Assembly (NCBI RefSeq): GCF_055900595.2
Contig: NZ_CM148325.1
DNA length: 64,000 bases
Strand: one strand, 5' to 3'
Shown here: positions 3,278-53,638 of the stretch, in pieces
How positions within the stretch are numbered: position 1 is the first letter of the stretch
How the letters are laid out: each line of letters starts with the position of its first letter
Notes under the pieces: generated by a model
Seen by the model: the letters and a program-made list of their open reading frames with translations, nothing else
What the model was told of the DNA's origin: nothing
The model's database searches: none
Translations under genes and position numbers: made by a program

Positions 3278-3961
3278 ATGAAACTGTTGATTGTCGAAGA
3301 TGAAAAGAAAACCGGCGAATACTTAACCAAAGGGTTAACCGAGGCCGGTTTTGTGGTTGATTTGGCCGATAACGGGCTGAATGGATACCATCTGGCGATG
3401 ACAGGTGATTATGACCTGATAATCCTAGATATTATGCTGCCGGACGTGAACGGCTGGGATATCGTGCGTATGTTGCGTTCCGCCAATAAAGGGATGCCGA
3501 TTCTGTTGCTTACCGCGCTTGGCACCATTGAACATCGCGTCAAGGGGCTGGAGCTGGGAGCGGATGACTATCTGGTGAAGCCGTTCGCTTTTGCTGAACT
3601 GCTGGCGCGGGTGCGCACTCTACTGCGTCGCGGGGCGGCGGTGATTATCGAAAGTCAGTTTCAGGTTGCCGATTTAATGGTTGATCTGGTCAGCCGCAAA
3701 GTCACCCGCAGCGGCACGCGCATCACTTTGACCAGTAAAGAGTTTACTCTGCTGGAGTTTTTCCTTCGCCATCAGGGCGAAGTGCTGCCCCGCTCGCTTA
3801 TCGCCTCGCAGGTGTGGGACATGAATTTCGACAGCGACACTAACGCCATTGATGTGGCGGTGAAGCGGCTGCGCGGCAAAATCGACAACGACTTTGAGCC
3901 GAAGCTGATTCAAACCGTGCGCGGCGTGGGTTACATGCTTGAGGTGCCGGATGGTCAGTAA
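3278..3961 (+). CDS. cusR: CusR OmpR-family response regulator
   Basis: 227-aa ORF with receiver domain (LIVEDE...[11 protein letters not shown]) and winged-helix C-terminus. Confidence 0.9.
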
Positions 3962-5393
3962 GCCGTTTCAGCGCCCGTTTTCGCTGGCAACCCGCCTGAC
4001 CTTTTTTATTAGCCTGGCCACCATCGCGGCGTTTTTCGCCTTTGCATGGATCATGATCCACTCAGTAAAAGTGCATTTTGCCGAGCAGGATATTAATGAT
4101 TTAAAAGAGATTAGCGCCACACTTGAACGGGTACTTAATCACCCTGACGAAACGCAAGCCCGACGCTTAATGACGCTGGAAGATATTGTCAGTGGTTATT
4201 CCAATGTGTTGATTTCTCTGGCAGATAGCCACGGTAAAACGGTGTATCACTCCCCCGGCGCGCCGGATATCCGCGAGTTTGCACGTGATGCCATACCCGA
4301 TAAAGACGCTCGGGGCGGCGAGGTGTATCTCCTTTCCGGCCCGACAATGATGATGCCAGGCCACGGTCACGGGCATATAGAACACAGCAACTGGCGGATG
4401 ATTAACTTGCCGGTTGGCCCGCTGGTGGACGGCAAACCGATTTATACGCTCTACATCGCGCTGTCTATTGATTTTCATCTTCATTACATTAATGATTTGA
4501 TGAATAAACTTATTATGACCGCATCGATCATCAGCATCCTGATCGTCTTTATCGTGCTGTTGGCGGTACATAAAGGCCACGCGCCAATTCGCAGCGTCAG
4601 CCGTCAAATCCAGAACATTACCTCGAAAGATCTCGACGTTCGCCTCGATCCACAGACCGTGCCCATTGAACTGGAACAACTGGTGCTGTCGTTCAACCAT
4701 ATGATCGAGCGTATCGAGGATGTCTTTACCCGCCAGTCCAATTTCTGTGCGGATATCGCCCACGAAATTCGCACGCCGATTACGAATCTCATAACGCAAA
4801 CGGAAATCGCCCTCAGCCAGTCGCGCAGCCAGAAGGAGCTGGAAGATGTGCTCTACTCTAATCTCGAAGAGCTGACGCGAATGGCGAAAATGGTCAGCGA
4901 TATGCTGTTTCTCGCTCAGGCCGATAACAACCAGTTAATCCCCGAAAAGAAAATGCTCAACCTGGCGGATGAAGTTGGTAAAGTGTTCGATTTTTTCGAG
5001 GCGTTAGCGGAAGATCGCGGCGTAGCACTACGGTTTGTTGGCGACAAATGTCAGGTTGCGGGCGATCCGCTGATGCTGCGTCGGGCGCTAAGCAACCTGC
5101 TTTCTAACGCCCTGCGTTATACGCCGCCCGGAGAGGCAATTGTAGTGCGCTGTCAAACGGTCGATCACCAGGTGCAAGTTACCGTCGAAAACCCCGGTAC
5201 GCCCATTGCGCCCGAGCACTTACCGCGTTTGTTTGACCGTTTCTACCGCGTTGATCCTTCCCGCCAGCGAAAAGGTGAAGGTAGCGGTATTGGTCTGGCG
5301 ATAGTGAAATCAATTGTTGTCGCGCATAAAGGCACGGTTGCGGTAACGTCAGATGCGCGGGGGACAAGGTTTGTTATCATATTACCCGCTTAA
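3951..5393 (+). CDS. cusS: CusS sensor histidine kinase
   Basis: ORF 3939-5393; start placed at the internal Met ([10 protein letters not shown]) that gives a 480-aa protein overlapping the cusR stop; HisKA (HEIRTP) and HATPase motifs. Confidence 0.85.
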
Positions 5394-5542
5394 TCCTTCA
5401 GCAATCGGCAACTTTTATAACCAGTGTAAAAATAACGTGCCGCAATAATCCTACCTATTAATGATAAAAAGCTGTCACAATTCATAAAAAACTTTAATAT
5501 ACGCCACCCTAAACATAACCAGCGTTAATGTAAGGTTTTTGT

Positions 5543-7780
5543 GTGGACTGGCTTCTTGATGTTTTTGCAACCTGGCTATATGGCTTAAAAGTAATCGCGA
5601 TAACGTTAGCGGTCATCATGTTCATCAGCGGGCTGGACGATTTTTTTATTGATGTCGTCTACTGGGTACGCCGCATTAAACGCAAGTTGAGTGTTTATCG
5701 CCGCTACCCGCGAATGAGTTACCGCGAACTGTATAAACCAGATGAAAAACCGTTAGCGATTATGGTTCCGGCGTGGAATGAAACGGGCGTCATCGGCAAT
5801 ATGGCCGAGCTGGCGGCGACCACGCTCGACTATGAAAACTATCATATCTTTGTTGGCACCTACCCCAACGACCCAGATACTCAGCGTGATGTTGACGAAG
5901 TGTGCGCTCGCTTCCCAAACGTGCATAAGGTAGTCTGCGCGCGTCCTGGCCCCACCAGCAAAGCCGACTGCCTGAACAACGTGCTGGACGCCATCACCCA
6001 GTTTGAGCGTAGCGCCAATTTCGCTTTTGCTGGTTTTATTCTGCATGACGCCGAAGACGTAATTTCACCGATGGAATTGCGTCTGTTCAACTATCTGGTC
6101 GAGCGTAAAGATCTGATTCAGATCCCGGTATACCCATTCGAACGCGAATGGACGCACTTCACCAGCATGACTTACATTGATGAGTTTTCAGAACTGCATG
6201 GCAAAGATGTTCCGGTGCGTGAAGCCCTCGCCGGACAGGTGCCCAGCGCAGGCGTCGGTACTTGTTTCAGCCGCCGCGCCGTGACCGCACTGTTAGCTGA
6301 TGGTGACGGTATTGCTTTCGACGTGCAGAGTCTTACTGAAGATTACGACATTGGTTTCCGCCTGAAAGAAAAAGGTATGACGGAAATTTTTGTCCGTTTT
6401 CCGGTGGTGGACGAAGCCAAAGAACGCGAGCAGCGTAAATTTTTACAGCACGCGCGGACGTCAAACATGATCTGCGTGCGCGAATATTTCCCCGATACCT
6501 TTTCGACGGCGGTTCGACAAAAATCTCGCTGGATCATCGGCATTGTTTTCCAGGGCTTTAAAACCCATAAATGGACCTCCAGCCTGACGCTGAACTACTT
6601 TCTCTGGCGCGACCGCAAAGGGGCAATCAGTAACTTTGTCAGCTTCCTCGCGATGCTGGTGATGATCCAGCTTTTGCTGTTACTGGCGTATGAAAGTTTC
6701 TGGCCCGATGCCTGGCATTTCCTTTCTATTTTCAGCGGCAGCGCATGGTTAATGACCCTGCTGTGGCTAAACTTTGGTTTGATGGTTAACCGCATCGTGC
6801 AGCGGGTGATTTTTGTCACTGGCTACTACGGTCTGACGCAGGGGCTGCTATCTGTCCTGCGTCTTTTCTGGGGCAACCTGATTAACTTCATGGCCAACTG
6901 GCGCGCGTTAAGACAGGTACTTCAACACGGCGATCCACGTCGCGTCGCGTGGGATAAAACAACGCATGACTTCCCCAGCGTCACTGGCGATACCCGCTCG
7001 TTGCGCCCGTTAGGTCAAATTCTGCTGGAAAATCAGGTCATCACTGAAGAACAACTCGATACGGCACTGCGTAATCGTGTCGAAGGTCTACGCTTGGGCG
7101 GTTCAATGTTGATGCAGGGGCTGATTAGCGCCGAACAGCTGGCACAGGCACTGGCAGAGCAAAACGGCGTGGCGTGGGAGTCCATCGATGCCTGGCAGAT
7201 CCCTTCTTCGCTGATTGCCGCGATGCCGGCCTCCGTGGCGCTGCATTATGCGGTGCTACCGCTGCGTCTGGAAAATGATGAGTTAATTGTCGGCAGTGAA
7301 GATGGTATTGACCCGGTTTCGCTGGCAGCCCTGACGCGTAAAGTTGGATGCAAAGTGCGTTACGTCATTGTTCTGCGGGGACAAATTGTCACGGGGTTAC
7401 GTCACTGGTATGCACGCCGACGCGGTCACGATCCGCGGGCAATGTTGTACAATGCGGTTCAGCATCAGTGGCTCACGGAACAGCAGGCCGGTGAAATCTG
7501 GCGGCAATATGTGCCGCATCAGTTCCTGTTCGCCGAAATACTGACCACGCTCGGTCATATTAATCGTTCAGCAATTAACGTGTTGTTATTGCGCCATGAA
7601 CGCAGTTCTCTGCCGCTCGGCAAGTTTTTGGTCACCGAAGGCGTTATCAGCCAGGAAACGTTGGATCGCGTCCTGACAATTCAACGCGAATTACAAGTTT
7701 CGATGCAATCACTATTACTCAAAGCAGGTTTAAACACAGAACAGGTTGCGCAACTGGAGTCCGAAAATGAAGGAGAATAA
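5543..7780 (+). CDS. nfrB: NfrB, bacteriophage N4 adsorption protein B (inner-membrane glycosyltransferase-like)
   Basis: 745-aa ORF matching remembered NfrB length and position next to nfrA. Confidence 0.85.
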   Translation: MDWLLDVFATWLYGLKVIAITLAVIMFISGLDDFFIDVVYWVRRIKRKLSVYRRYPRMSYRELYKPDEKPLAIMVPAWNETGVIGNMAELAATTLDYENYHIFVGTYPNDPDTQRDVDEVCARFPNVHKVVCARPGPTSKADCLNNVLDAITQFERSANFAFAGFILHDAEDVISPMELRLFNYLVERKDLIQIPVYPFEREWTHFTSMTYIDEFSELHGKDVPVREALAGQVPSAGVGTCFSRRAVTALLADGDGIAFDVQSLTEDYDIGFRLKEKGMTEIFVRFPVVDEAKEREQRKFLQHARTSNMICVREYFPDTFSTAVRQKSRWIIGIVFQGFKTHKWTSSLTLNYFLWRDRKGAISNFVSFLAMLVMIQLLLLLAYESFWPDAWHFLSIFSGSAWLMTLLWLNFGLMVNRIVQRVIFVTGYYGLTQGLLSVLRLFWGNLINFMANWRALRQVLQHGDPRRVAWDKTTHDFPSVTGDTRSLRPLGQILLENQVITEEQLDTALRNRVEGLRLGGSMLMQGLISAEQLAQALAEQNGVAWESIDAWQIPSSLIAAMPASVALHYAVLPLRLENDELIVGSEDGIDPVSLAALTRKVGCKVRYVIVLRGQIVTGLRHWYARRRGHDPRAMLYNAVQHQWLTEQQAGEIWRQYVPHQFLFAEILTTLGHINRSAINVLLLRHERSSLPLGKFLVTEGVISQETLDRVLTIQRELQVSMQSLLLKAGLNTEQVAQLESENEGE

Positions 7781-18049: not shown

Positions 18050-18553
18050 TTATTGATAGTGTTTTATGTTCAGATAATGCCCGATGACTTTGTCATGCAG
18101 CTCCACCGATTTTGAGAACGACAGCGACTTCCGTCCCAGCCGTGCCAGGTGCTGCCTCAGATTCAGGTTATGCCGCTCAATTCGCTGCGTATATCGCTTG
18201 CTGATTACGTGCAGCTTTCCCTTCAGGCGGGATTCATACAGCGGCCAGCCATCCGTCATCCATATCACCACGTCAAAGGGTGACAGCAGGCTCATAAGAC
18301 GCCCCAGCGTCGCCATAGTGCGTTCACCGAATACGTGCGCAACAACCGTCTTCCGGAGCCTGTCATACGCGTAAAACAGCCAGCGCTGGCGCGATTTAGC
18401 CCCGACATAGCCCCACTGTTCGTCCATTTCCGCACAGACGATGACGTCACTGCCCGGCTGTATGCGCGAGGTTACCGACTGCGGCCTGAGTTTTTTAAGT
18501 GACGTAAAATCGTGTTGAGGCCAACGCCCATAATGCGGGCAGTTGCCCGGCAT
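18050..18553 (-). CDS. insB: IS1 transposase InsB
   Basis: 167-aa ORF identical in character to IS1 InsB ([25 protein letters not shown]...). Confidence 0.95.
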
Positions 18554-18747
18554 CCAACGCCATTCATGGCCATATCAATGATTTTCTGGTGCGTACCGGG
18601 TTGAGAAGCGGTGTAAGTGAACTGCAGTTGCCATGTTTTACGGCAGTGAGAGCAGAGATAGCGCTGATGTCCGGCGGTGCTTTTGCCGTTACGCACCACC
18701 CCGTCAGTAGCTGAACAGGAGGGACAGCTGATAGAAACAGAAGCCAC
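18472..18747 (-). CDS. insA: IS1 protein InsA
   Basis: 91-aa [43 protein letters not shown]..., classic InsA with zinc finger. Confidence 0.95.
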
Positions 18748-18797
18748 TGGAGCACCTCAAAAACACCATCATACACTAAATCAGTAAGTTGGCAGCA

Positions 18798-19430
18798 TCA
18801 CCCATTACCGCCCATAATGATGATATTAGTGACGCCCTCACTAAATTCTGCGTAGCTCTCAATATCATCATTTGGATCAAAAGTTTCTTTATCCTTACCT
18901 GACCACTCAGCACCGCCAGACTGAGTGATGATATTTTGTGGTTTAATATTCCAGTCCAGCTCATAACGTTCAATACCATCGCCCTCAATGATATTTTTCC
19001 CCGTTGTGATTGCCTGAACGGCAAGCCATTCAATACGTGCACGAATAGCTTTAGCCTGATTTACAATCGCCTGTTTAACTTTAATATTACGCGCTCCAAA
19101 AGCATTGTATTGCTCAGGTGATACACCAGCAGGGCGCACAGCTAACTTATTTGGATCAATGCTGCTTTTCGGCTTCATATAGCCTGGACGAATTGTTTTT
19201 GATTCGAACCCTTCGTCACGTGAAACTTTACTACCCACCATAGGAGAACAAAACGCTGCAATTGGGATATTTGGATCGTCGATTGTATCAAGAATAATAT
19301 CGCGCGATTCAAACATTACCGAGCGAGTAAAAAACAAACTGGTAAACAACGCATTTAGTTGTTTTTGTACATCTACAGCATTAACCACCTGTACAAGCTG
19401 AGTAGGCGAATATAAATCAACCATACGCAT
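18798..19430 (-). pseudogene. Divergent lambda-E-family major capsid protein gene, 3' end truncated by IS1
   Basis: From Met at about 19430 the translation aligns with lambda gpE (FFTRSVMFESRD..., PGYMKPK, NIITQSGGAEWSGKDKETFDPNDDIESYA) and terminates at the IS1 junction after NIII, roughly half the length of gpE. Confidence 0.65.
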
Positions 19431-19640
19431 CCTCTTTGCATTCATTAAAAATAATTGTGGATATATGCTATCACCGATATTTGTCATGCGAACACATGCA
19501 ACCGAGTGCAATGTTGTATAAAGTTTTGGGGTGACAACTTCAGTGCGGACAATTAGTGTTAATATCTTCACTCCCTTTGGTCGGGATTTATGTAGCATGC
19601 CGGAAAATTTATTTTTTCTGGCTTTTTTTATTGGCAATAT

Positions 19641-20619: not shown

Positions 20620-22440
20620 TTAATTTTTGCTATCGTCATTAGTGACCGATACACATGATGGCATCCAGTCTTCTGATTCCTCCGTCAGTGTCACGTTTGA
20701 ACGCAAACCGTGCTTCGTTTTCCGTTTCATATACTCCCTGCCATATTCCGCCATTGCCCCCGGCATATCTTTACCGAAGCGCGTCAGTGTTACAGGTTTA
20801 CCAAACCCATGTGCCCTCATATAAGCCAGATAGGCATGATAGAGATACCTGCGTGGGCTAAATGGCACAATTTCAGCATTACCCACTAACAGGCCATCAC
20901 ACATTACCGATGCCATGAGATAGCCGCAGAAGTCCACCAGCGAATCCCCCTCTCGCTTTATCGCCAGTGCTTCTTCAGATTTCTGCTGCTCATATAACAG
21001 GCGTCTGGCTTCGTCCTGATCATCAAACCGTGTAAGCAGATGACGAATCACTACCGCCAGCTCACCTTCTATTTTTTCCGCCAGCATCGAATCGCGTTCG
21101 TTCTCCGGTACAACTTCCGAAAAATTGAATATCACCCGACGACGTGAGATCCCCCCGCTGCGGTCACTGAATGACATGGCGTTATTGTTAACCGCCAGCA
21201 CTACTGCCGGAATACGCGTTGAATAGGGGGCTTTGTGTTTCGGGTCAATTGCCACCTTGTCACCGCCTGTAATGGCCTTAATCCCTGCCCCATCACCAGC
21301 GTAGCGGGTCATATCCGGCATGATAATCAGCGAAAAGCCAACCACTAACGCACGTTCCCTTGCATCTTCCAGCGCCTTCATGCTTGCTGATACTGTATTA
21401 GCCTTACCCGCCAGCATGGTGCAAATCTCCGCCATCACACTTTTACCACTTCCCCCCGGCCCTGTTACCTCAATGAATAACTGCCAGTCGTACCGGTTCG
21501 CCAGCACCATGAATAATGCCGCCAGTACGCGATCTGCCTTGCGGTCATTCTCAGCCACCGAACGGCGCAACCACTTCCAGAAATTCGGCGCATGTGTTGC
21601 CAGCGTTTCCCCCTCTGCTGGTGGGCTGAAAGGTAATTCACTGGCAATTAACAACCAGTCGTTTTTGTTATGCTCCCGAAAATTACCTGTTCTGGTATCA
21701 AATACCCCGTTACTGAATCCAATCAGGTTACGGGCTGTATTCCCCATTACAGGCAAACTTAACTTCATGGTATCTACCGCCGATTTAATGGCGTTCTGCG
21801 AATAGCTGATCTCCACATCAATGAAAATCTGCGCCATAGCACGCTGTAACTCTTTATCCTGAACCGGCTCCCATACAACGCCGTTGTAATGATGAACGGT
21901 GTCAGAGTCGGCATTGATTGCCAGTTCGCCGCCGTAATGTGCCAGGAGAACTTCACCGCGCTGGCTGGCCCCCATCTGATTCAACGCCAAAGATGAAGCA
22001 CGCTCGTCATTTTTGCGCTCTGCCTTCTTCACTGGCAGTTCAATCACCAGACTTTCCCCATGCTCCGCTTCAGCTTTTAGGCCGACAAGGCGCGGAGTCC
22101 AGTCTTCAGGCTCTCGATCAACAAAGCTACGGTAACAACGTGCTTCCTTTACGCCTGCAATAGCAAGTAATGTCGCAACCTTCGTCAGATTTTTCTCTGC
22201 GATCTTTCCGGCACGATAAACACGCACATAATGACGGCCTTCATCGATAATTTGCATATCATCCAGGTTTTCCAGTTGTTCCGTACCCAGAATTACTGGT
22301 GGTGTATCATCTGCTGCAATATGCTTACCCGCCCATTCATTCCATTCTTTTGCATGGCTCCAGGCATCACTGCCAGCAAAAATGATGACTTCTGTCATTT
22401 TGTCGCGCGGTTGGTATTTTAAGTTCGGAGCACGTTTCAT
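20620..22440 (-). CDS. P4-alpha-family primase/helicase (phage/plasmid primase, P-loop NTPase)
   Basis: 606-aa ORF with Walker A GPGGSGKS and primase C-terminal-type sequence; adjacent to TGTTCACC iterons. Confidence 0.8.
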   Translation of the reverse strand: MKRAPNLKYQPRDKMTEVIIFAGSDAWSHAKEWNEWAGKHIAADDTPPVILGTEQLENLDDMQIIDEGRHYVRVYRAGKIAEKNLTKVATLLAIAGVKEARCYRSFVDREPEDWTPRLVGLKAEAEHGESLVIELPVKKAERKNDERASSLALNQMGASQRGEVLLAHYGGELAINADSDTVHHYNGVVWEPVQDKELQRAMAQIFIDVEISYSQNAIKSAVDTMKLSLPVMGNTARNLIGFSNGVFDTRTGNFREHNKNDWLLIASELPFSPPAEGETLATHAPNFWKWLRRSVAENDRKADRVLAALFMVLANRYDWQLFIEVTGPGGSGKSVMAEICTMLAGKANTVSASMKALEDARERALVVGFSLIIMPDMTRYAGDGAGIKAITGGDKVAIDPKHKAPYSTRIPAVVLAVNNNAMSFSDRSGGISRRRVIFNFSEVVPENERDSMLAEKIEGELAVVIRHLLTRFDDQDEARRLLYEQQKSEEALAIKREGDSLVDFCGYLMASVMCDGLLVGNAEIVPFSPRRYLYHAYLAYMRAHGFGKPVTLTRFGKDMPGAMAEYGREYMKRKTKHGLRSNVTLTEESEDWMPSCVSVTNDDSKN

Positions 22441-22727: not shown

Positions 22728-22952
22728 TTATTCTCCGGTATAGCTCTGGTCGTGTATTTTTATAGCTTCATCCAGCTCTTTGATGACAGGATCAAGTAAC
22801 GTAATTAACGCTCCAGCTAAATTAGCATCCCGTTCATCGTGTTCCGCATTTGTTGTCCCATCAAGCCAGGTTGATAAGATTTCTCGCATATTTTTGCCAC
22901 AAACGAGCGCGTTTTCAGCATGTGTCAGCACTTTAAAATAAAGATCATTCAT
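22728..22952 (-). CDS. Hypothetical protein of the P4-like module
   Basis: 74-aa acidic ORF in tandem with downstream genes. Confidence 0.4.
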   Translation of the reverse strand: MNDLYFKVLTHAENALVCGKNMREILSTWLDGTTNAEHDERDANLAGALITLLDPVIKELDEAIKIHDQSYTGE

Positions 22953-23259
22953 GGCACACCTCCTGACGAATACGGGCGGCGAATATCATCACGTAGCCAG
23001 TTGGGGATTGCAGCCGGGCTTCCTGTTCGCTGGCGGCCTCGATGGTAATCACGCGCGGTTGTGCCGTACTCAGGGCGATAAAACGCCAGATGTATTTATT
23101 CAGGTTGTGCGGGTCCCGCCCTTGCGGGTGTGTGGTATGATTTCTCATAGCTACCTCGATACTGTTGCTATCGTTGGTGGTTAGAAGCCCGTTGGTGTTC
23201 CTAGCACCTTCGGGCTTTGCTTTTTTAAGTGCCTCCGTGTTAAGGTGGTCACCTAACAA
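22945..23259 (-). CDS. Hypothetical protein of the P4-like module (true start probably the internal Met at 23148)
   Basis: 104-aa ORF; 5' part overlaps an opposite-strand ORF, so a shorter 67-aa product from 23148 is more plausible. Confidence 0.35.
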   Translation of the reverse strand: MLGDHLNTEALKKAKPEGARNTNGLLTTNDSNSIEVAMRNHTTHPQGRDPHNLNKYIWRFIALSTAQPRVITIEAASEQEARLQSPTGYVMIFAARIRQEVCHE

Positions 23260-23479
23260 TGAAAAGGCTAATTCAATAGGTGGTCACTTGTCAACGATCA
23301 AACGCGATAAAAGTCCTAAGGGTGATGGGCAATCTCCACAATTCAGAATGCGAATTTCTCCAGAGCTAAAAGAGCAATTCGACAAAGAAGCGCAGAGCGA
23401 CGGCATAAGCCTAGCCAACTGGCTTAAAGAATTAGGGCGCAAAGAGCTGCTACGGCGCGGTATTGAACCAAAAGGATAA
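23165..23479 (+). CDS. Putative ribbon-helix-helix DNA-binding protein (true start probably internal)
   Basis: C-terminal 45 residues (QFRMRISPELKEQFDKEAQSDGISLANWLKELGRKELL) fit an Arc/CopG-type RHH pattern; two GGTGGTCAC direct repeats lie just upstream of the likely start. Confidence 0.45.
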   Translation: MLSLVVRSPLVFLAPSGFAFLSASVLRWSPNNEKANSIGGHLSTIKRDKSPKGDGQSPQFRMRISPELKEQFDKEAQSDGISLANWLKELGRKELLRRGIEPKG

Positions 23480-23506
23480 GAATAATTGAAGTCAAGGAGC
23501 TAACAC

Positions 23507-23863
23507 ATGAAATACGAATTCTTCGCAACAAGTAGCAGTAGTTTGGATGTATACATAGTCACTGTATCAAACGATTCTGGCTCTCTAATCATGACTTGTA
23601 ATTGTCCAGCAGGAAGTAAAGGTATTCTATGTAGACACCGTAAAGCTTTAATTACCGGAAAAATCCGCGGTATATTCACTCCCCCAAGAAGGAATAATCC
23701 CGAAAAATTACAAGAAGCTATAAATTTAATAGCCACATATGGCATAGATAAAACATTAAAGTTGTACACTGATGAGTTAGAACGAGCAGAACAGACTTGG
23801 ATAAGTGTTCGCGATAATTTGAGAGCAATGATAAACGCTCTTGTTGAACCACCTAAATATTGA
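23507..23863 (+). CDS. Small SWIM-zinc-finger-like protein (cargo gene)
   Basis: 118-aa AT-rich ORF with CxC-x8-CxH motif (CNCPAGSKGILCRH); followed by a hairpin terminator. Confidence 0.55.
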   Translation: MKYEFFATSSSSLDVYIVTVSNDSGSLIMTCNCPAGSKGILCRHRKALITGKIRGIFTPPRRNNPEKLQEAINLIATYGIDKTLKLYTDELERAEQTWISVRDNLRAMINALVEPPKY

Positions 23864-23929
23864 ACTGTTCACATTGCCTATCAGGCGATAACCTCGTATT
23901 CTGATTAAGGCTAACTATATACTCACATT

Positions 23930-23955
23930 GGCGACCAATTCTGGTCGCCTTTATC
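23930..23955. terminator. Hairpin between two convergent cargo genes (likely bidirectional intrinsic terminator)
   Basis: GGCGACC-aattct-GGTCGCC stem-loop followed by TTTATC; sits between the convergent 118-aa and 284-aa genes. Confidence 0.55.
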
Positions 23956-23994: not shown

Positions 23995-24849
23995 TTACCC
24001 CCTGAATGGAATTGATGAGGATTTAATTTCCACAGAACCAAATCCTCTTGAATCCAAAAACATTTTTATACCAGCCTCAATAAAATCATAATCGCTTGTC
24101 GGGCCAATTGTAATGCTTTTAATTGGTAACTTTCTATTATCTTTATTATTAATAATGATATAAGGGATGATACCATTATTATTTATTCTAAATTTCACAT
24201 CTGGCATTTGTATCCACGGAGTAAACACCAGTCTAAATTCATTTTCTTCGATAAAACTAGGATGTTTAAAAAATGGGATATATTTAGATATAAATTGATA
24301 CGTAGAGACCATTGTTACAAAATGATCATTCATTTCTTTAATGTTAATACCATTACAAGAAAAAAACTCATCCAACTCCTTACTCATCTTTGTAATATCG
24401 TCATTATTTGAATATATAACATCATGTGCAACACAATTTAAATAAATATTTTGACAAAAACTCACAAGTTCATCCGCATCAAATTCAATGCAAACGCCCT
24501 GTTTATTTCCGTAACCTCTCCACTGACTTAACTTATCGTTTTCTTTACAAAAAGATATGCTATAAACATGTTTATCAATCCCTTTTTCTTTTTGTAACTT
24601 CCCTTTCTCATACATGTCAAGAGACTTGAGCAAAATAGTTTTCTTATCTTTTGGGATGATATTATCATCAACTATTTTAATTGTATTTCGAAAACATTCA
24701 CATCCATGGTTAGACTCCTCTTTATCATTTAAGAAATATATATTTGTAGCCCATAAAGAATTAGAGTCTAATATACCTTTCAAACCAAAAAGATCTGTAT
24801 AATGAAATATAGCCACAATGCCCCACCTAATAGTTAAGTCGTTTCCCAC
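23995..24849 (-). CDS. DUF2971-like protein (candidate anti-phage cargo gene)
   Basis: 284-aa very AT-rich ORF; motifs FHYTDLFGLKGIL, YFLNDKEE, SISFC...LSQWRGYGN..GVCIEFD resemble my recollection of DUF2971; overlaps the alpA stop (co-transcribed). Confidence 0.5.
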   Translation of the reverse strand: MGNDLTIRWGIVAIFHYTDLFGLKGILDSNSLWATNIYFLNDKEESNHGCECFRNTIKIVDDNIIPKDKKTILLKSLDMYEKGKLQKEKGIDKHVYSISFCKENDKLSQWRGYGNKQGVCIEFDADELVSFCQNIYLNCVAHDVIYSNNDDITKMSKELDEFFSCNGINIKEMNDHFVTMVSTYQFISKYIPFFKHPSFIEENEFRLVFTPWIQMPDVKFRINNNGIIPYIIINNKDNRKLPIKSITIGPTSDYDFIEAGIKMFLDSRGFGSVEIKSSSIPFRG

Positions 24850-25064
24850 TCACCTCGAATCCATGCCTGCACTTCTGAAAGACGATATGCAACAGCAGTG
24901 GAACCAATCTTGATCCGCTTAGGAAATTTTCCTTCCTTCTCCAGCTTCCAGCGTGTGCTGTTCGCAAGAGTGGTTAGCTCCCGACATTCTTTCTCACGGA
25001 TCATACGATCGATGTTAGGAATGTACTCCAGACCCTTTTTATCAACAATTGCCATTTTTTTCAT
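24834..25064 (-). CDS. alpA: AlpA-family phage transcriptional regulator/excisionase-like HTH protein
   Basis: 76-aa ORF directly downstream of the integrase, sequence pattern (ELTTLANSTRWKLEKEGKFPKRIKIGSTAVAYRLSEVQAWI) typical of AlpA. Confidence 0.8.
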   Translation of the reverse strand: MKKMAIVDKKGLEYIPNIDRMIREKECRELTTLANSTRWKLEKEGKFPKRIKIGSTAVAYRLSEVQAWIRGEWETT

Positions 25065-25065
25065 G

Positions 25066-26352
25066 TTAACCAGCCTTTTGTTTGAGGATTGTCACTTTTG
25101 AATCAGCACCTGCGATGCTATTGAGATATGTAGTCCAGAGTTCCAGAGCATCCAGTTTTTTAGCCATAAACTTACTCCGGTTGTAAACACCCGCCACGCC
25201 AGGTAGCGCATGGCCTAACAGTTGTTCTACTACATAAAATTCAACACCGAGATCACTTAGATGAGTAGATAGCGTTCTTCTAAGGTCGTGTAGTGACCAT
25301 TGTTTTTCATGGCCCAAACGTTTACCGATTTTCCCCCCAATCTTGCTTACGCTTTCTCTAATTCGCAGACTTCCCAGCACATAACCAGTATGTTTTGTCT
25401 CTTCGTGAACATCCGTTACCCACTGTCGTAGAATTTCAGGTACTGGTCTGACGATTTCAACACCAGTTTTTGAGTGATCTTTTGGTACCGTCCAAACCCA
25501 ACTTTCGAGATCCCATTCGCTCCATTCAGATAATCGGGCTTCACTCATTCGACATCCAAATACTGTACAAAGCACAAACATTTTTCGCGTGTATTCAGAC
25601 ATTAGTTTTAAATCAGGCTCGACAAAAATTGCCTTCCAGAGCTGGCCGAGTTCGGCTTCATCCAGAACCCGATCCCGCTTACCTGCAATCTGCCCCACAT
25701 CACTCATGCGCAAATCCTTTAAAGCATCACACGTCGCGTACTGGCGTACCCGACAAAAACGAAGAGCTAATTTAGTGTCAGAAAAAACATACGCCGCCAT
25801 AACTGGTGCATTACGTTTAATTCGGTCAAAACAGTCCAGCCATTCATATAGGTGAGTGTCATTTACGGGCAAATGACCGATATAGGGAAAGATATGCTTT
25901 CGAAATCTGCCAAGCGTTACAGCATGAGTTTTACGACGCACCTTACAGTAATTTTCATACCAGTAATTTAGTGCATCCTCCACTGTGACCGGCTTTAAGC
26001 GTTCTTCAGCCTGAATCTTAATCTGGATACGCGGATCACGTTTGTCAGCCAACCAACCACGGCACTCGTCGCGCTTTTCCCTTGCCTGTTTGAGTGACAT
26101 ATCAGGATATTTACCCAACGTTAGCCAGACCGGAGCAGCCCGGCCACCTGCTAACCTGTAGAAGAAAACAAAGCTCACAGCCCCTTTAGTACTCACACGA
26201 ATAGAAAGCCCCTTTCCATCAGCAATGGTGATCTGCTTTTCTCTGGGTTTCCCCAGATATCCTTTAAGCGCTTTGTCGCTCAGTTTGTTCTCGCCAGCCA
26301 TTTTTAGCCCCAAAAAGCAATACAAGCTGCAATACAGAGATGATTGCAACAC
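25066..26352 (-). CDS. Tyrosine recombinase/integrase (P4-type)
   Basis: 428-aa ORF with C-terminal catalytic region containing HDLRRT and LLGHA...Y motifs; int-alpA arrangement typical of P4-like islands. Confidence 0.85.
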   Translation of the reverse strand: MLQSSLYCSLYCFLGLKMAGENKLSDKALKGYLGKPREKQITIADGKGLSIRVSTKGAVSFVFFYRLAGGRAAPVWLTLGKYPDMSLKQAREKRDECRGWLADKRDPRIQIKIQAEERLKPVTVEDALNYWYENYCKVRRKTHAVTLGRFRKHIFPYIGHLPVNDTHLYEWLDCFDRIKRNAPVMAAYVFSDTKLALRFCRVRQYATCDALKDLRMSDVGQIAGKRDRVLDEAELGQLWKAIFVEPDLKLMSEYTRKMFVLCTVFGCRMSEARLSEWSEWDLESWVWTVPKDHSKTGVEIVRPVPEILRQWVTDVHEETKHTGYVLGSLRIRESVSKIGGKIGKRLGHEKQWSLHDLRRTLSTHLSDLGVEFYVVEQLLGHALPGVAGVYNRSKFMAKKLDALELWTTYLNSIAGADSKVTILKQKAG

Positions 26353-26433
26353 ACAGATAACGAGGAAAATTCAGTGAAAGCACCAGATAAACTTATTCTT
26401 TATTATCAAAAGATTAAGTGTAAAAACCAGCAA

Positions 26434-26709
26434 CTACACGAAAGCCTCAGAAAGCCATGCTAAGTGCTTGGGTTTGACATAACCCGGCGTAAATTCAGAG
26501 GTGGAGCCGCCACGGGATCGGATAACCTCACCGGAAACAATCGGCGAAACGTACAGCGCCATGTTTACCAGTCCCGGAATTTGTGAGAGATAGACTTTTT
26601 CCGTGGTGAAAGGATAGGTTTCACGGAAAAACAGGCGCAGAAACAGCGGATCGAACTTAAAGTGATGCTGGGTCGATGCCAGTAATTCTGCAGTTGTATA
26701 TACAGACAT
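26434..26709 (-). pseudogene. E: Lambda major capsid protein E, N-terminal ~80 codons only (truncated)
   Basis: MSVYTTAELLASTQHHFKFDPLFLRLFFRETYPFTTEKVYLSQIPGLVNMALYVSPIVSGEVIRSRGGSTSEFTPGYVKPKH is near-identical to lambda gpE N-terminus, then diverges and stops. Confidence 0.85.
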
Positions 26710-26764
26710 AAATTATTTCCATAAAAAAAGCCGCACAGGCGGCCTTTGTTGATGAAGGGGAAGA

Positions 26765-27097
26765 TTAAACGATGCTGATTGCCGTTCCGGCAAACGCGGT
26801 CCGTTTTTTAGTCTCGTCGCTGGCAGCCTCCGGCCAGAGCACATCCTCATAACGGAACGAGCCGGACTTGTAGAACGTCAGTGTGGTGCTGGTCTGGTCA
26901 GCAGCAACCGCCAGAATGCCAACGGCTGCACCGTCGGTGGTGCCATCCCACACAACCAGCTTACGGGTAGTGCCATCCAGCATCAGCGGGGTCATTGCAG
27001 GCGTTTTCGCACTCAATCCGCCAGGCGCAATTGCTGTATGAGCCGGATCACTGTTACCCAGCGGCTGGTAATGGTTAAACTCTTCTTTTGTCGCCAT
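26765..27097 (-). CDS. D: Head decoration protein D
   Basis: 110-aa ORF closely matching lambda gpD ([14 protein letters not shown]...FAGTAISIV). Confidence 0.9.
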
Positions 27098-35822: not shown

Positions 35823-37151
35823 CTGATGAATCCCCTAATGATTTTGGTAAAAATCATTAAGTTAAGGTGGATACACATCTTGTCATATGATCAAATGGTT
35901 TCGCCAAAAATCAATAATCAGACAACAAAATGTGCGAACTCGATATTTTACACGACTCTCTTTACCAATTCTGCCCCGAATTACACTTAAAACGACTCAA
36001 CAGCTTAACGTTGGCTTGCCACGCCTTACTTGACTGTAAAACTCTCACTCTTACCGAACTTGGCCGTAACCTGCCAACCAAAGCGAGAACAAAACATAAC
36101 ATCAAACGAATCGACCGATTGTTAGGTAATCGTCACCTCCACAAAGAGCGACTCGCTGTATACCGTTGGCATGCTAGCTTTATCTGTTCGGGCAATACGA
36201 TGCCCATTGTACTTGTTGACTGGTCTGATATCCGTGAGCAAAAACGGCTTATGGTATTGCGAGCTTCAGTCGCACTACACGGTCGTTCTGTTACTCTTTA
36301 TGAGAAAGCGTTCCCGCTTTCAGAGCAATGTTCAAAGAAAGCTCATGACCAATTTCTAGCCGACCTTGCGAGCATTCTACCGAGTAACACCACACCGCTC
36401 ATTGTCAGTGATGCTGGCTTTAAAGTGCCATGGTATAAATCCGTTGAGAAGCTGGGTTGGTACTGGTTAAGTCGAGTAAGAGGAAAAGTACAATATGCAG
36501 ACCTAGGAGCGGAAAACTGGAAACCTATCAGCAACTTACATGATATGTCATCTAGTCACTCAAAGACTTTAGGCTATAAGAGGCTGACTAAAAGCAATCC
36601 AATCTCATGCCAAATTCTATTGTATAAATCTCGCTCTAAAGGCCGAAAAAATCAGCGCTCGACACGGACTCATTGTCACCACCCGTCACCTAAAATCTAC
36701 TCAGCGTCGGCAAAGGAGCCATGGATTCTAGCAACTAACTTACCTGTTGAAATTCGAACACCCAAACAACTTGTTAATATCTATTCGAAGCGAATGCAGA
36801 TTGAAGAAACCTTCCGAGACTTGAAAAGTCCTGCCTACGGACTAGGCCTACGCCATAGCCGAACGAGCAGCTCAGAGCGTTTTGATATCATGCTGCTAAT
36901 CGCCCTGATGCTTCAACTAACATGTTGGCTTGCGGGCGTTCATGCTCAGAAACAAGGTTGGGACAAGCACTTCCAGGCTAACACAGTCAGAAATCGAAAC
37001 GTACTCTCAACAGTTCGCTTAGGCATGGAAGTTTTGCGGCATTCTGGCTACACAATAACAAGGGAAGACTCACTCGTGGCTGCAACCCTGCTTACTCAAA
37101 ATCTATTCACACATGGTTACGTTTTGGGGAAATTATGAGGGGATCTCTCAG
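35823..37151 (+). mobile_element. IS10 insertion sequence (1329 bp) with 9-bp target-site duplication
   Basis: Ends CTGATGAATCCCCTAATGATTTTGG... and ...GAAATTATGAGGGGATCTCTCAG; flanked by direct repeats TGCCAAGCA at 35814-35822 and 37152-37160. Confidence 0.95.
35930..37138 (+). CDS. IS10 transposase
   Basis: 402-aa ORF beginning 107 bp inside IS10, matching IS10 transposase sequence. Confidence 0.95.
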
Positions 37152-41560: not shown

Positions 41561-42169
41561 CTATTGCAATCTAGCCTGACGCAAATGTGGCAATACCCTG
41601 CTCCACTTATTATCCTGCCAAGGCTGGAATTTTACATGTGCCGTTTTTCTGGCAAGGATTTCGCGCGCCTTATGTAGTATCTGGGGATATTCTTGCTCGA
41701 TAGAAGTAAAGCGACCGGCTTCGCGGTGTTCCGCAACCTGAAGAAGTGGAGTAACGTTCTGGCAGGCGGTTAACATCGTATCACTTGCTCGCCATAACCA
41801 AGCAAGTGTGCAAAGTTCGTTATCAGTGAATTGTTTTGTGATCGGGGATTGTTGAACTTCTCGATCGAGAATATCCAGAACCCAGCGGCGGAACTCTTTG
41901 GCTACAGGAGTTCGTGCAAACATGGCGATCAAATGGGCTCCGCGAAGGCTAAATACTCGAGACTCCTGCATTCCACGAGGGGTGGTCACTTTGACCACCC
42001 TTGTCATCATATCTGTAAATTCATCTGAGTGACGAGAGTAAATGCGCTGAACTGCTTTATCGTCCGCATATTCCAGAGCTAAACCAACTTCAGTGGCAGT
42101 AAGCCAAATTCTGTTATTGTGGCAAATTGGGGTAAACGTCGTTTTGTGGAATGCTAATTGAGTAGTCAT
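41561..42169 (-). CDS. Bro-N domain protein (antirepressor-like)
   Basis: 202-aa ORF; N-terminal half fits Bro-N pattern (F..F.....RI.LTATEV..ALEY...RIYSRHSDEF...RVF...G..LIA....TPVAKEFRRWVLDIL). Confidence 0.6.
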   Translation of the reverse strand: MTTQLAFHKTTFTPICHNNRIWLTATEVGLALEYADDKAVQRIYSRHSDEFTDMMTRVVKVTTPRGMQESRVFSLRGAHLIAMFARTPVAKEFRRWVLDILDREVQQSPITKQFTDNELCTLAWLWRASDTMLTACQNVTPLLQVAEHREAGRFTSIEQEYPQILHKAREILARKTAHVKFQPWQDNKWSRVLPHLRQARLQ

Positions 42170-42595
42170 AGTATCACCTCATCAGGTTAACCATCACCAC
42201 CAACGACGCCAATCGACTGGTGGTGAACTGTGCAAGGTTGGCGTAACCGGCTACTCAAACCCGGCGCTCCCGAAGAAGCCCTCACACAGCCCACCATAAT
42301 TTGGGCGTAGCCGTGCTTAGCGCATAAAAAAACCGCTTAACGCGGTATGCGTTGAGTAGTATTCCGGGACGCCAATCCCGTGTGCCGATTTTGCGGCAAC
42401 GCACAGAATATAGCGCCGGATAAATAATGTCGTCAACCCTTGCAAATGGGTGGCGCGATGATCACTACTACCACTATAACCGCTCCAACTGTTGCAACTA
42501 CTTTAGGCCAAGACATCAAGATTTCCATATCACCTTTAGCTGCGAAACGAACAGAGGTTCCCATCTCTATACTGCCGAGGCCAAACACCGAATAT

Positions 42596-53561: not shown

Positions 53562-53638
53562 TGGCGCGCCCTGCAGGATTCGAACCTGCGGCCCACGACT
53601 TAGAAGGTCGTTGCTCTATCCAACTGAGCTAAGGGCGC
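53562..53638 (-). tRNA. argU: tRNA-Arg (UCU anticodon), prophage attL
   Basis: Reverse complement gives GCGCCCTTAGCTCAGTTGGATAGAGCAACGACCTTCTAAGTCGTGGGCCGCAGGTTCGAATCCTGCAGGGCGCGCCA, cloverleaf-compatible with CCA end. Confidence 0.9.

What the first reader, a model, noticed from the sequence alone, without database searches (positions are those of the whole stretch)
23244..23287. Direct repeats GGTGGTCAC 35 bp apart upstream of the RHH-like gene
Two identical 9-mers (23244-23252 and 23279-23287) lie just upstream of the likely start of the RHH-like ORF. The position and spacing suggest autoregulatory operator sites for the RHH protein, controlling the RHH/SWIM unit.
Basis: seen in the sequence. 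Interest (0 to 1): 0.3.

Follow-up and report, generated by a model that had tools for sequence, protein, structure and literature searches.

The report
Arc-like repressor operators in phage satellite
The two repeats are very probably the binding sites of a small Arc-like repressor encoded right next to them, placed inside two opposed promoters of a phage-satellite island, which makes this protein a candidate for the repressor that Gram-negative satellites were thought to lack.

Summary
GGTGGTCAC occurs at 23244-23252 and 23279-23287, and the match extends to 16 of 20 bases. Alone this is weak evidence, but comparison with relatives settles it. In 45 of 59 related loci from many Enterobacterales genera, two 8-bp sites (GT-NNNN-AC) lie 31-35 bp apart, and the second ends at the start codon of a conserved 63-aa ribbon-helix-helix (RHH) gene (TTG 23288). 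The inner bases differ between lineages, change together in both copies, and track two beta-strand residues that align with the DNA-contacting Gln9 and Asn11 of P22 Arc, the closest solved relative. Two corrections apply. SWIM is variable cargo, not a fixed partner. The sites also lie in a second, opposed promoter (TTGACA-18-TAGCCT) that drives the Icd-like/primase operon of the island, a decayed helper-embedded PICI. Copy 1 overlaps an extended -10 (TGtTAAGGT) of the RHH promoter, and copy 2 fills the spacer of the leftward promoter. No binding or transcription experiment was done. I found no published description, and the founding PICI paper calls a global repressor in Gram-negative PICIs "unclear".

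The parts
23243..23254 (.). Operator O1 (repeat copy 1). It is the 12-bp near-palindrome AGGTGGTCACCT with core GTGGTCAC at 23245-23252. It overlaps the last bases of the rightward -10 and the predicted rightward transcription start, and lies at about +6 to +14 of the leftward transcript.
   Evidence: Position and core are conserved in 45 of 59 loci, and the core co-varies with copy 2 and with the RHH beta-strand residues.
23278..23287 (.). Operator O2 (repeat copy 2). Sequence AGGTGGTCAC with core 23280-23287, ending at the RHH start codon. Its left flank (T)AGGT doubles as the Shine-Dalgarno sequence. It occupies the -35-proximal part of the leftward promoter's spacer.
23288..23479 (+). Gene for a 63-aa Arc-like ribbon-helix-helix protein with a TTG start: MSTIKRDKSPKGDGQSPQFRMRISPELKEQF... 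The predicted DNA-reading beta-strand is P17-Q-F-R-M-R-I23.
   Evidence: The family is conserved at 63-64 aa across Enterobacterales. Third-codon-position entropy is 1.49 against 0.67 and 0.53 at positions 1 and 2. The best PDB sequence hit is Arc, E 0.0099. The AlphaFold2 model has pLDDT 82, and its top Foldseek hits are Arc structures with TM-score normalised to the target of 0.76-0.88. Pfam HicB scores 20.3 bits against a cut-off of 21.
23217..23246 (+). Predicted rightward promoter P_R: weak -35 TTGCTT at 23217-23222, TG extension at 23238-23239 and -10 TAAGGT at 23241-23246. The predicted start is about 23251-23255.
   Evidence: TAnnnT is present in 39 of 45 loci and the TG extension in 38 of 45, at a fixed offset from copy 1. 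The transcription start is inferred, not mapped.
23265..23294 (-). Predicted leftward promoter P_L: -35 TTGACA at 23294-23289 (the reverse complement of the start codon plus the Ser codon), an 18-nt spacer that holds O2, and -10 TAGCCT at 23270-23265. The predicted start is about 23257-23260. It drives the Icd-like/DUF4222/primase operon.
   Evidence: TTGACA is present in 42 of 45 loci. TAnnnT sits at exactly an 18-nt spacer in 29 of 45, against 4 or fewer at any other spacing. Codon 2 is TCA in 43 of 45 despite six Ser codons. TTGACA(T/C)GT next to an operator is retained in YlcI/YnfO-type islands where it does not overlap a start codon.
23507..23863 (+). SWIM zinc-finger gene (118 aa), probably co-transcribed with the RHH gene. 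It is variable cargo and is followed by a terminator-like hairpin at 23930-23949.
   Evidence: Pfam SWIM, E 2.6e-5. Terminator scan. The slot is variable in other loci.
23185..23228 (+). Conserved hairpin plus T-rich tail just upstream of P_R, with the tail overlapping the P_R -35. It is a plus-strand intrinsic terminator, probably ending an antisense RNA of about 80 nt that starts near 23148.
   Evidence: The plus strand is more stable in 59 of 59 loci, mean difference -7.8 kcal/mol, and G.U pairs occur essentially only on the plus strand. The 23148-23230 plus-strand fold is -36.6 kcal/mol with z -5.5. A conserved upstream -10 is present in 39 of 50 loci.
22945..23148 (-). Icd-like gene (67 aa), the first gene of the leftward operon, which continues to the D5/DUF5906 primase at 20620-22440.
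   Evidence: NCBIfam phage_ICD_like, E 2.8e-19. PGAP annotation of the identical strain. Pfam hits for DUF4222 and the primase.

Best explanation
The two repeats are the operators (O1 and O2) of the Arc-like ribbon-helix-helix protein whose gene starts directly after O2. I infer that one RHH dimer inserts its two-stranded beta-sheet into the major groove of each 8-12-bp (pseudo)palindrome AGGT-NNNN-ACCT. The operators sit in a compact switch made of two opposed promoters whose predicted start sites are only about 5 bp apart. O1 overlaps the -10 and start site of the rightward promoter P_R, which makes the RHH protein plus whatever cargo follows it (here SWIM). O2 fills the spacer of the leftward promoter P_L, which makes the Icd-like protein and the primase/replication genes of the satellite island. 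Bound RHH would keep the island's early/replication operon off and limit its own synthesis, so it would act as the island's maintenance repressor. What is shown: the sites exist, are conserved in position, and co-vary with each other and with specific RHH residues, and both promoter consensus elements are conserved at fixed offsets. What is inferred: physical binding, the sign of regulation, the transcription starts, and how repression is lifted.
For: (1) Two sites are present in 45 of 59 loci at 31-35 bp spacing, against about 3% expected by chance per locus. (2) At least eight core types were seen, each the same (or the reverse complement) in both copies and each paired with its own beta-strand motif: QFRMRI with GTGACCAC/GTGGTCAC, QFKMRI with GTGGCCAC, TFQIRI with GTACGTAC (about 20-30 loci), PFHMRI with GTGTACAC, AFQIRM and AFQIRI with GTGTGTAC/GTACACAC, M/LFNVRL with GTATAGAC/GTCTATAC, and IFSVRL with GTATGGAC/GTCCATAC. 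Mutual information is 2.23 bits against a permutation maximum of 1.36 in 5000 shuffles. (3) The association holds within every band of overall protein relatedness. Pairs with the same beta residues share the core in 286 of 295 cases; pairs with different residues do so in 79 of 881. (4) The two co-varying residues and the invariant Arg align with Arc Gln9, Asn11 and Arg13 (alignment). That those Arc residues contact operator bases is established knowledge, from the Arc-operator crystal structure 1PAR, which is also a top fold match. (5) The P_R extended -10 and the P_L -35/-10 are conserved at fixed offsets from the sites. (6) Single mismatches between the copies are wobble-compatible on the plus strand in some lineages (window, L051, L059) and only on the minus strand in others (L002-L008, L017). 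This fits recognition as DNA rather than as RNA.
Against: No binding, footprint, reporter or transcription-start data exist for this locus. The association between residues and cores is partly confounded by shared ancestry, since the loci are not independent; the relatedness-stratified control reduces this problem but does not remove it. The flanks of the sites are also constrained by other functions: TAAGGT is the -10 in copy 1 and TAGGT is the Shine-Dalgarno sequence in copy 2. So only the inner 4-6 bp are clean evidence. The centre-to-centre distance of 35 bp (about 3.3 helical turns) does not put the two sites on the same face of the DNA, so cooperative binding is not obvious. The P_L -10 in this window (TAGCCT) is weak, and AlpA is a known activator of Gram-negative PICI genes (PMC6092414), so the RHH may not be the only or the main control. 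Fourteen of 59 loci lack a clear second site.
Confidence: 0.8

Rival explanations
1. RNA hairpin. Because each copy is nearly palindromic, copy 1 can pair with copy 2 in a transcript that contains both. The resulting stem would bury the Shine-Dalgarno sequence and start codon of the RHH gene. Under this reading the repeats are a translational control element rather than protein-binding sites.
For: The window's plus-strand segment 23243-23292 folds into a 13-bp stem at -14.9 kcal/mol, z -3.25. In most lineages with asymmetric cores the two copies are inverted relative to each other, which gives perfect complementarity.
Against: If the conserved promoters are real, the rightward start lies within or after copy 1 and the leftward start lies between the copies. 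Neither main transcript would then carry both copies. The widespread GTGACCAC/GTGACCAC type, seen in E. coli, Erwinia, Xenorhabdus and Pantoea, has two central A-C mismatches on the plus strand (L002 fold z -1.4). Wobble compatibility switches strand between lineages, unlike the neighbouring terminator hairpin, which favours the plus strand in 59 of 59 loci. This model does not explain why the core tracks the RHH beta-strand residues. It could still act as an extra layer on read-through transcripts from the upstream antisense-RNA promoter.
Confidence: 0.07
2. The sites are operators, but for a different DNA-binding protein of the island or the helper phage (for example AlpA or a helper-encoded regulator). 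On this reading the RHH merely travels with them.
For: AlpA activates Gram-negative PICI genes (PMC6092414), and an alpA gene lies nearby at 24834-25064.
Against: The RHH gene is the only DNA-binding gene that is always adjacent. The module also occurs next to tRNA-Sec without a neighbouring int-alpA pair. The residues that co-vary are those expected to read bases in an Arc-like beta-sheet. Short palindromes are typical RHH sites.
Confidence: 0.06
3. The repeat is only a by-product of two unrelated signals that look alike: a -10 hexamer TAAGGT in copy 1 and a Shine-Dalgarno sequence TAGGT in copy 2. A chance match extends them.
For: The flanks do carry these signals. In the window alone a 9-mer repeat is not significant.
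Against: This cannot explain the inner NNNN and AC bases matching between the copies in 45 of 59 loci, nor their changing together across at least eight types.
Confidence: 0.03
4. P4-type RNA immunity. The repeats would be seqA/seqC-like targets of a CI/C4-type immunity RNA processed from the leader of the leftward operon.
For: The first leftward gene is Icd-like, as in the P1/P4 immunity regions. C4 and isrK RNAs occur elsewhere in the window at 42216-42398. PMC10111431 reports such RNAs in some PICIs.
Against: There is no C4, isrK or CI match in 22900-23550 even at E up to 10. The conserved hairpin belongs to the plus strand, not to the leftward leader. I saw no complementary seqB-like element. 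The predicted leftward start lies between the copies, so copy 2 would not be in the leader.
Confidence: 0.03

Closest known systems
Arc (and Mnt) repressors of the phage P22 immI region
   Same: Both are small ribbon-helix-helix repressors. Arc is the best sequence match (E 0.0099) and the best fold match. The beta-strand motif P-Q-F-x-h-R-h is shared. From my own knowledge of the P22 literature, not checked here: an operator lies inside the core of a promoter for a potentially harmful early gene, the promoters are closely apposed and opposed, and the repressor regulates itself.
   Different: By established knowledge, Arc binds one 21-bp operator as a tetramer, with two half-sites about 11 bp apart. 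Here there are two separate 8-12-bp palindromes 35 bp apart. The controlled genes also differ: an Icd-like or SymE-like gene plus a primase operon of a satellite, rather than an antirepressor of a phage. The N-terminal arm is longer, at 16 residues. Sequence identity is only about 25%.
Stl/Rpr master repressors of Gram-positive PICIs (SaPIs)
   Same: The gene sits between the integrase side and the replication operon and is transcribed in the opposite direction to the replication operon. Its likely role is to keep the island quiescent (the Stl/Rpr description is from PMC6092414).
   Different: The fold is unrelated. Stl/Rpr proteins are larger, and from my own knowledge they are helix-turn-helix proteins. 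No helper-encoded anti-repressor is known here. The role is inferred only from sequence.
HicB antitoxins (the name NCBI gives to homologues)
   Same: Both share the C-terminal RHH DNA-binding domain (Pfam HicB 20.3 bits, just below the cut-off of 21).
   Different: There is no HicA toxin gene next to it, and the 63-aa protein has no N-terminal HicB domain. The neighbours are variable cargo or alpA. The antitoxin name is therefore misleading.
YlcI/YnfO-family small proteins in other E. coli PICIs
   Same: They occupy the same slot, opposite the Icd-like gene. They have their own two or three palindromic repeats, and TTGACA(T/C)GT next to a repeat is retained.
   Different: They belong to a different sequence family: the window's RHH does not match the NCBIfam model. 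Their gene starts about 60-70 bp further from the leftward promoter. They carry three sites rather than two. Their function is also unstudied as far as I could find.
Helper-embedded PICI '11capE' (Tommasini, Mageeney and Williams 2023, PMC10111431)
   Same: The island context matches. The integrase abuts an interrupted lambdoid major-capsid gene, the island carries its own capsid gene, and the order is int, alpA, variable zone, then Icd-like/primase/SSB.
   Different: That paper does not mention an RHH gene or operators in the variable zone; the terms ribbon, operator and HicB each have zero hits. In this window the island's capsid gene is cut by IS1.

Membership tests
Ribbon-helix-helix (Arc/MetJ-type) DNA-binding proteins | N-terminal beta-strand followed by two helices | tested here: met
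   The AlphaFold2 model has pLDDT 82, an extended segment up to residue 24, and helices at 25-37 and 42-56. The top Foldseek hits are almost all RHH proteins, led by Arc 1myl and 1par with TM-score normalised to the target of 0.76-0.88. The strand itself pairs only in a dimer, which was not modelled.
Ribbon-helix-helix (Arc/MetJ-type) DNA-binding proteins | Detectable sequence relationship to known members | tested here: inconclusive
   The profile against PDB gives Arc at E 0.0099. Pfam HicB scores 20.3 bits against a cut-off of 21. The scores are borderline, as expected for a 63-aa protein.
Ribbon-helix-helix (Arc/MetJ-type) DNA-binding proteins | Binds short palindromic or repeated sites at its own promoter through beta-strand side chains | tested here: inconclusive
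   The comparative signal is strong, but there is no binding experiment.
HicAB type II toxin-antitoxin system | Adjacent hicA toxin gene | tested here: not met
   The downstream gene is SWIM here. In other loci it is SIR2_2, AAA_21, Mrr_cat, RelA_SpoT or PIN_8, or there is none. The upstream neighbour is the Icd-like or SymE-like gene on the other strand.
HicAB type II toxin-antitoxin system | HicB N-terminal toxin-neutralising domain | tested here: not met
   The protein is 63 aa and only the RHH part matches, at residues 17-47.
P22 immI Arc-operator system | Single 21-bp operator bound by a tetramer, with two half-sites about 11 bp apart | tested here: not met
   There are two separate 8-12-bp palindromes 35 bp apart.
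P22 immI Arc-operator system | Controls an antirepressor (ant) gene | tested here: not met
   The leftward operon starts with the Icd-like gene and continues to the primase.
P4/P1-type RNA immunity (CI/C4 RNA with seqA/seqC targets) | C4/CI/isrK-type RNA in the leader | tested here: not met
   Rfam gives no match in 22900-23550 at E up to 10, although C4 and isrK are detected elsewhere in the window.
PICI master repressor (functional class, as Stl/Rpr) | Gene opposed to the replication operon, with its operator in that operon's promoter | tested here: met
   O2 lies in the spacer of the conserved leftward promoter upstream of the Icd-like/primase genes.
PICI master repressor (functional class, as Stl/Rpr) | Loss of the repressor induces the island, and a helper phage protein lifts repression | not testable with these tools
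   This needs genetics.
Helper-embedded PICI (island context) | Integrase next to an interrupted prophage late gene, with int-alpA-variable-replication-late gene order | tested here: met
   A Phage_cap_E N-terminal fragment at 26434-26709 abuts int at 25066-26352. The island contains alpA, the primase, SSB and its own cap_E. This matches PMC10111431.

The most novel reading that the evidence does not exclude
This Arc-like RHH, together with the YlcI/YnfO-type proteins that occupy the same slot in other islands, is the long-sought maintenance repressor of Gram-negative phage-inducible chromosomal islands. It has diversified into many operator/recognition-residue 'immunity types'. It sits in a three-layer switch: two opposed promoters, two operators, and a SymR-like antisense RNA against the first, toxic gene of the early operon. 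Its promoter also expresses a swappable anti-phage cargo gene while the island is silent.
Probability: 0.4. Interest if true: 0.7.

Novelty: new member of a known kind. Interest (0 to 1): 0.5.

Why it matters
[quoted passage not shown] It found that AlpA activates rather than represses, and it calls the difference from Gram-positive islands 'a mystery' (PMC6092414). This work identifies a conserved small repressor gene with matched operators in the promoter of the replication operon. Genome annotation often misses that gene or replaces it with a spurious antisense ORF. It gives the field a concrete candidate that can be tested directly. The natural series of at least eight operator/residue pairs is also a ready-made data set for studying how beta-sheet DNA readers change specificity. 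About 200 of 5,426 complete E. coli genomes, including the O157:H7 lineage, carry this module.

Tried and rejected
(1) P4-type immunity RNA. The idea was that the repeats are seqA/seqC targets. I rejected it because Rfam found no C4, isrK or CI match locally and the hairpin belongs to the plus strand.

(2) Leader peptide. The mini-ORF MKRLIQ (ATG 23259) after copy 1 is not a leader peptide, because the ATG is absent in close relatives.

(3) The minus-strand 'pseudogene' or 247-aa ORF annotated by PGAP. I rejected it as spurious. That frame is open in only 23 of 59 loci, its product is low-complexity, and it shares wobble positions with the real plus-strand frame, which explains its apparent synonymous bias.

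(4) The EHEC sRNA Esr41 as the identity of the plus-strand hairpin RNA. I rejected this because Esr41 lies in OI-43 and has its own Rfam family, which did not match.

(5) RNAalifold on a MAFFT alignment of the hairpin region gave no consensus structure, because two hairpin length classes were misaligned. I relied on per-sequence folds instead.

(6) My first minus-strand promoter scan was mis-indexed by 2 nt. I corrected it.

(7) The generic promoter scan found neither promoter, because it requires 9 of 12 matches to the hexamers and does not credit the TG extension.

(8) The third exact 9-mer at 41981 was not pursued, because it is compatible with chance.

Full report
THE OBSERVATION. GGTGGTCAC occurs at 23244-23252 and again at 23279-23287, 35 bp start to start. 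In the window alone this is only suggestive. About 15 exact 9-mer pairs within 60 bp are expected per 64 kb, and about 0.8 pairs at 16 of 20. A third exact 9-mer at 41981 lies inside an unrelated prophage gene and is compatible with chance.

THE GENE NEXT TO THE REPEATS. The window is E. coli; strain T-HYM1 is 100% identical over 22940-23870. NCBI's pipeline does not annotate the plus-strand ORF. It calls a minus-strand pseudogene there, and in O157:H7 it calls a 247-aa minus-strand 'hypothetical protein'. The plus-strand gene is the real one, for four reasons.
- It encodes a 63-64-aa family found across Enterobacterales with a strongly conserved N-terminus MST(I/V)KRDKSPKG.
- Variation concentrates at third codon positions, with entropy 1.49 against 0.67 and 0.53.
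- The antisense frame is open in only 23 of 59 loci.
- In close relatives copy 1 creates an in-frame TGA, so translation must start after it.
The start is TTG 23288, directly after copy 2, whose AGGT serves as the Shine-Dalgarno sequence. The protein is a ribbon-helix-helix (RHH) protein. Its best solved-structure sequence match is P22 Arc (E 0.0099). Pfam HicB, the RHH part only, scores just under its cut-off. An AlphaFold2 model (pLDDT 82) shows an extended N-terminal segment followed by two helices. Its best fold matches are Arc structures, followed by AmrZ, CopG, ParG and RHH antitoxins. It is not a HicB antitoxin, because there is no HicA neighbour and no N-terminal HicB domain.

THE COMPARATIVE TEST. 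I fetched 60 loci that encode relatives, one genome per species, and analysed 59 loci in all: 56 of those plus the window and two E. coli relatives. Two sites are present at the same positions in almost all of them, and copy 2 always ends at the start codon. The sites have the form AGGT-NNNN-ACCT with an 8-bp core GT-NNNN-AC, which is often a perfect palindrome. In 45 of 59 loci copy 1 is within one mismatch of copy 2 or of its reverse complement, at 31-35 bp (35 bp in 31 loci). About 3% would be expected by chance per locus.

The inner bases differ between lineages but change together in both copies, and each core type goes with its own beta-strand motif P-x1-F-x2-h-R-h:
- QFRMRI with GTGACCAC or GTGGTCAC
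- QFKMRI with GTGGCCAC
- TFQIRI with GTACGTAC
- PFHMRI with GTGTACAC
- AFQIRM and AFQIRI with GTGTGTAC plus GTACACAC or GTACATAC
- M/LFNVRL with GTATAGAC plus GTCTATAC
- IFSVRL with GTATGGAC plus GTCCATAC
- PFQIRI with GTGTTTAC plus GTAATTAC

Mutual information between (x1, x2) and the core is 2.23 bits, against a maximum of 1.36 in 5000 permutations. The association survives stratification by identity in the rest of the protein. Pairs with the same beta residues share the core in 286 of 295 cases, including 14 of 14 among proteins below 50% identical. Pairs with different residues share it in 79 of 881 cases. In the profile alignment to Arc, x1, x2 and the invariant Arg fall on Arc Gln9, Asn11 and Arg13. 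Those are the residues that contact operator bases in the Arc-operator crystal structure; this is established knowledge, and entry 1PAR is a top fold hit. This is the pattern expected when a repressor and its operators co-evolve.

THE GT/AC DIFFERENCE. The window's own variant, GT in the centre of both copies, differs from the AC in both copies of its closest relatives. This is best read as a flip of a pseudo-palindrome. Xenorhabdus budapestensis has AC in copy 1 and GT in copy 2, and the Yersinia/Rahnella type has the palindromic intermediate GC.

WHERE THE SITES SIT. Two promoter-like elements are conserved at fixed offsets from the sites.
- Plus strand (P_R): TG-n-TAnnnT (window TGtTAAGGT, 23238-23246) ends inside the left flank of copy 1. 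TAnnnT is present in 39 of 45 loci and the TG extension in 38 of 45. This is an extended -10 promoter for the RHH gene, with copy 1 covering the -10 edge and the predicted start.
- Minus strand (P_L): TTGACA (23294-23289) is the reverse complement of the start codon plus the Ser codon and is present in 42 of 45 loci. TAnnnT follows at exactly 18 nt in 29 of 45 loci, against 4 or fewer at any other spacing. In the window this -10 is TAGCCT, 23270-23265.
- The Ser codon is TCA in 43 of 45 loci although six codons are available. The TTGACA(T/C)GT-plus-operator element also persists in islands where it does not overlap a start codon. The -35 is therefore a real DNA-level signal.
Copy 2 fills the -35-proximal part of the P_L spacer. 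The two predicted start sites are about 5 bp apart and point towards each other, so RNA polymerase can probably occupy only one promoter at a time. All transcription starts are inferred.

WHAT THE SWITCH CONTROLS. Leftward lies the Icd-like gene (22945-23148), two small genes including a DUF4222 gene, the D5/DUF5906 primase (20620-22440) and SSB. Rightward lies the RHH gene and then SWIM, ending at a terminator-like hairpin at 23930-23949. SWIM is not a conserved partner. In most loci the RHH gene is followed at once by a convergent alpA-sized gene. In others it is followed by SIR2_2, AAA_21/AAA_15, Mrr_cat, RelA_SpoT or PIN_8 proteins on the same strand. This suggests a cargo slot expressed together with the repressor. 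The first leftward gene also varies: it is Icd-like, SymE-toxin-like (Pfam E 4.5e-17) or something else.

THE ISLAND. The integrase (25066-26352) abuts an N-terminal fragment of a lambdoid major capsid gene (26434-26709), followed by the prophage's decoration, protease and portal genes. The island carries alpA and its own capsid gene, which in this window is cut by IS1. This is the 'helper-embedded PICI' of the 11capE type described by Tommasini, Mageeney and Williams (PMC10111431). That paper places Bro-network proteins and CI/C4-type RNAs in the zone between alpA and the replication genes and does not mention an RHH gene or operators. Other E. coli PICIs carry a YlcI/YnfO-family small protein in the same slot, with their own two or three palindromic repeats, so the layout seems general. 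At the DNA level the module in the window is found in about 206 of 5,426 complete E. coli genomes, including O157:H7.

RIVALS.
- RNA hairpin between the copies. It is physically possible in the window (-14.9 kcal/mol, z -3.25). It is mismatched in the widespread GTGACCAC type (z -1.4). Its wobble pattern switches strand between lineages. Neither predicted transcript contains both copies. The model also does not explain the link to protein residues.
- A different binding protein such as AlpA. This cannot be excluded without experiments, but it does not fit the residue-specific co-variation, nor the module's occurrence without a neighbouring alpA.
- A chance resemblance of a -10 and a Shine-Dalgarno sequence. 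This explains the flanks only.
- P4-type RNA immunity. Rfam does not support it, and neither does the strand of the conserved hairpin.

NOVELTY AND INTEREST. Autoregulating RHH repressors with palindromic operators are textbook, so in kind this is a new member of a known class. The context is what matters. [quoted passage not shown] My searches found no later description of such a repressor, although subscription-only papers are not covered. The data make the RHH a concrete, testable candidate, but every functional step beyond sequence conservation is inference. I score interest at 0.5.

Noticed in passing
window 23133-23228 (+): A predicted cis-antisense small RNA of about 80 nt. A conserved -10 (window TGgTATGAT at 23133-23141; TAnnnT at the same offset in 39 of 50 loci) places the start at the start codon of the leftward Icd-like gene. 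The RNA would cover that gene's ribosome-binding site and end at the conserved hairpin 23185-23217 plus T-run. The fold is -36.6 kcal/mol with z -5.5, and the plus strand is favoured in 59 of 59 loci. The layout is the one I recall for SymR/SymE, and many related loci have a SymE-family toxin as the first leftward gene. Rfam symR matches only below threshold (L028, 31 bits).
   Followed up: partly
window 18050-19637 and 25066-27097: The island is a decayed helper-embedded PICI. The integrase abuts the N-terminal fragment of a lambdoid major capsid gene (26434-26709), next to the prophage decoration, protease and portal genes. The island's own Phage_cap_E gene (18798-19637) is interrupted by an IS1 transposase (18050-18553). 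This matches the '11capE' type in PMC10111431.
   Followed up: partly
window 23212-23478 (-); L003 4010-4753 (-): The RefSeq annotation puts a minus-strand pseudogene here, or in O157:H7 a 247-aa 'hypothetical protein', antisense to the real RHH gene, and it misses the TTG-start RHH gene. This looks like a recurrent mis-annotation in E. coli.
   Followed up: yes
window 23507-23863 (+) and 23995-24849 (-); loci L043, L047, L054, L055, L058: The slot just downstream of the RHH gene holds different genes in different islands: SWIM here, with a DUF2971 gene beyond it, and SIR2_2, AAA_21/AAA_15, RelA_SpoT, Mrr_cat or PIN_8 elsewhere. It looks like a cargo or defence hotspot co-transcribed with the repressor. 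SWIM and DUF2971 give only weak PADLOC candidate hits (PDC-S62 at E 5e-5, PDC-S31 at E 2e-4).
   Followed up: partly
L064 2758-2890, L065 2781-2910, L066 2775-2905: Other E. coli PICIs carry a YlcI/YnfO-family small protein (RHH-like motif ...ARVPHEV...) in the same slot. Each has its own palindromic sites in two or three copies (for example GGTGTTAAACAC, TGTGCGCACA), and TTGACA(T/C)GT next to a site is retained. This suggests a general repressor/operator slot in Gram-negative PICIs.
   Followed up: partly
window 41979-41999: A third exact GGTGGTCAC lies inside a 21-bp palindrome GGGTGGTCACTTTGACCACCC within an antirepressor-like ORF of another prophage, just downstream of the C4 and isrK RNA genes (42216-42398). 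About 0.5 such 9-mers are expected by chance. Whether the RHH could bind there is unknown.
   Followed up: no
window 35868-35937 (-), 53565-53638 (-): Rfam finds an IS10 RNA-OUT antisense RNA and a tRNA gene elsewhere in the window. Both are unrelated to the finding.
   Followed up: no
L034, L037, L039, L047, L052, L056, L028 (about 3800-5900): In several Citrobacter, Enterobacter, Lelliottia and Atlantibacter genomes the RHH/operator module lies within about 0.7-2.8 kb of the tRNA-Sec (selC) gene. The module therefore also occurs in selC-associated islands without an adjacent int-alpA pair.
   Followed up: no
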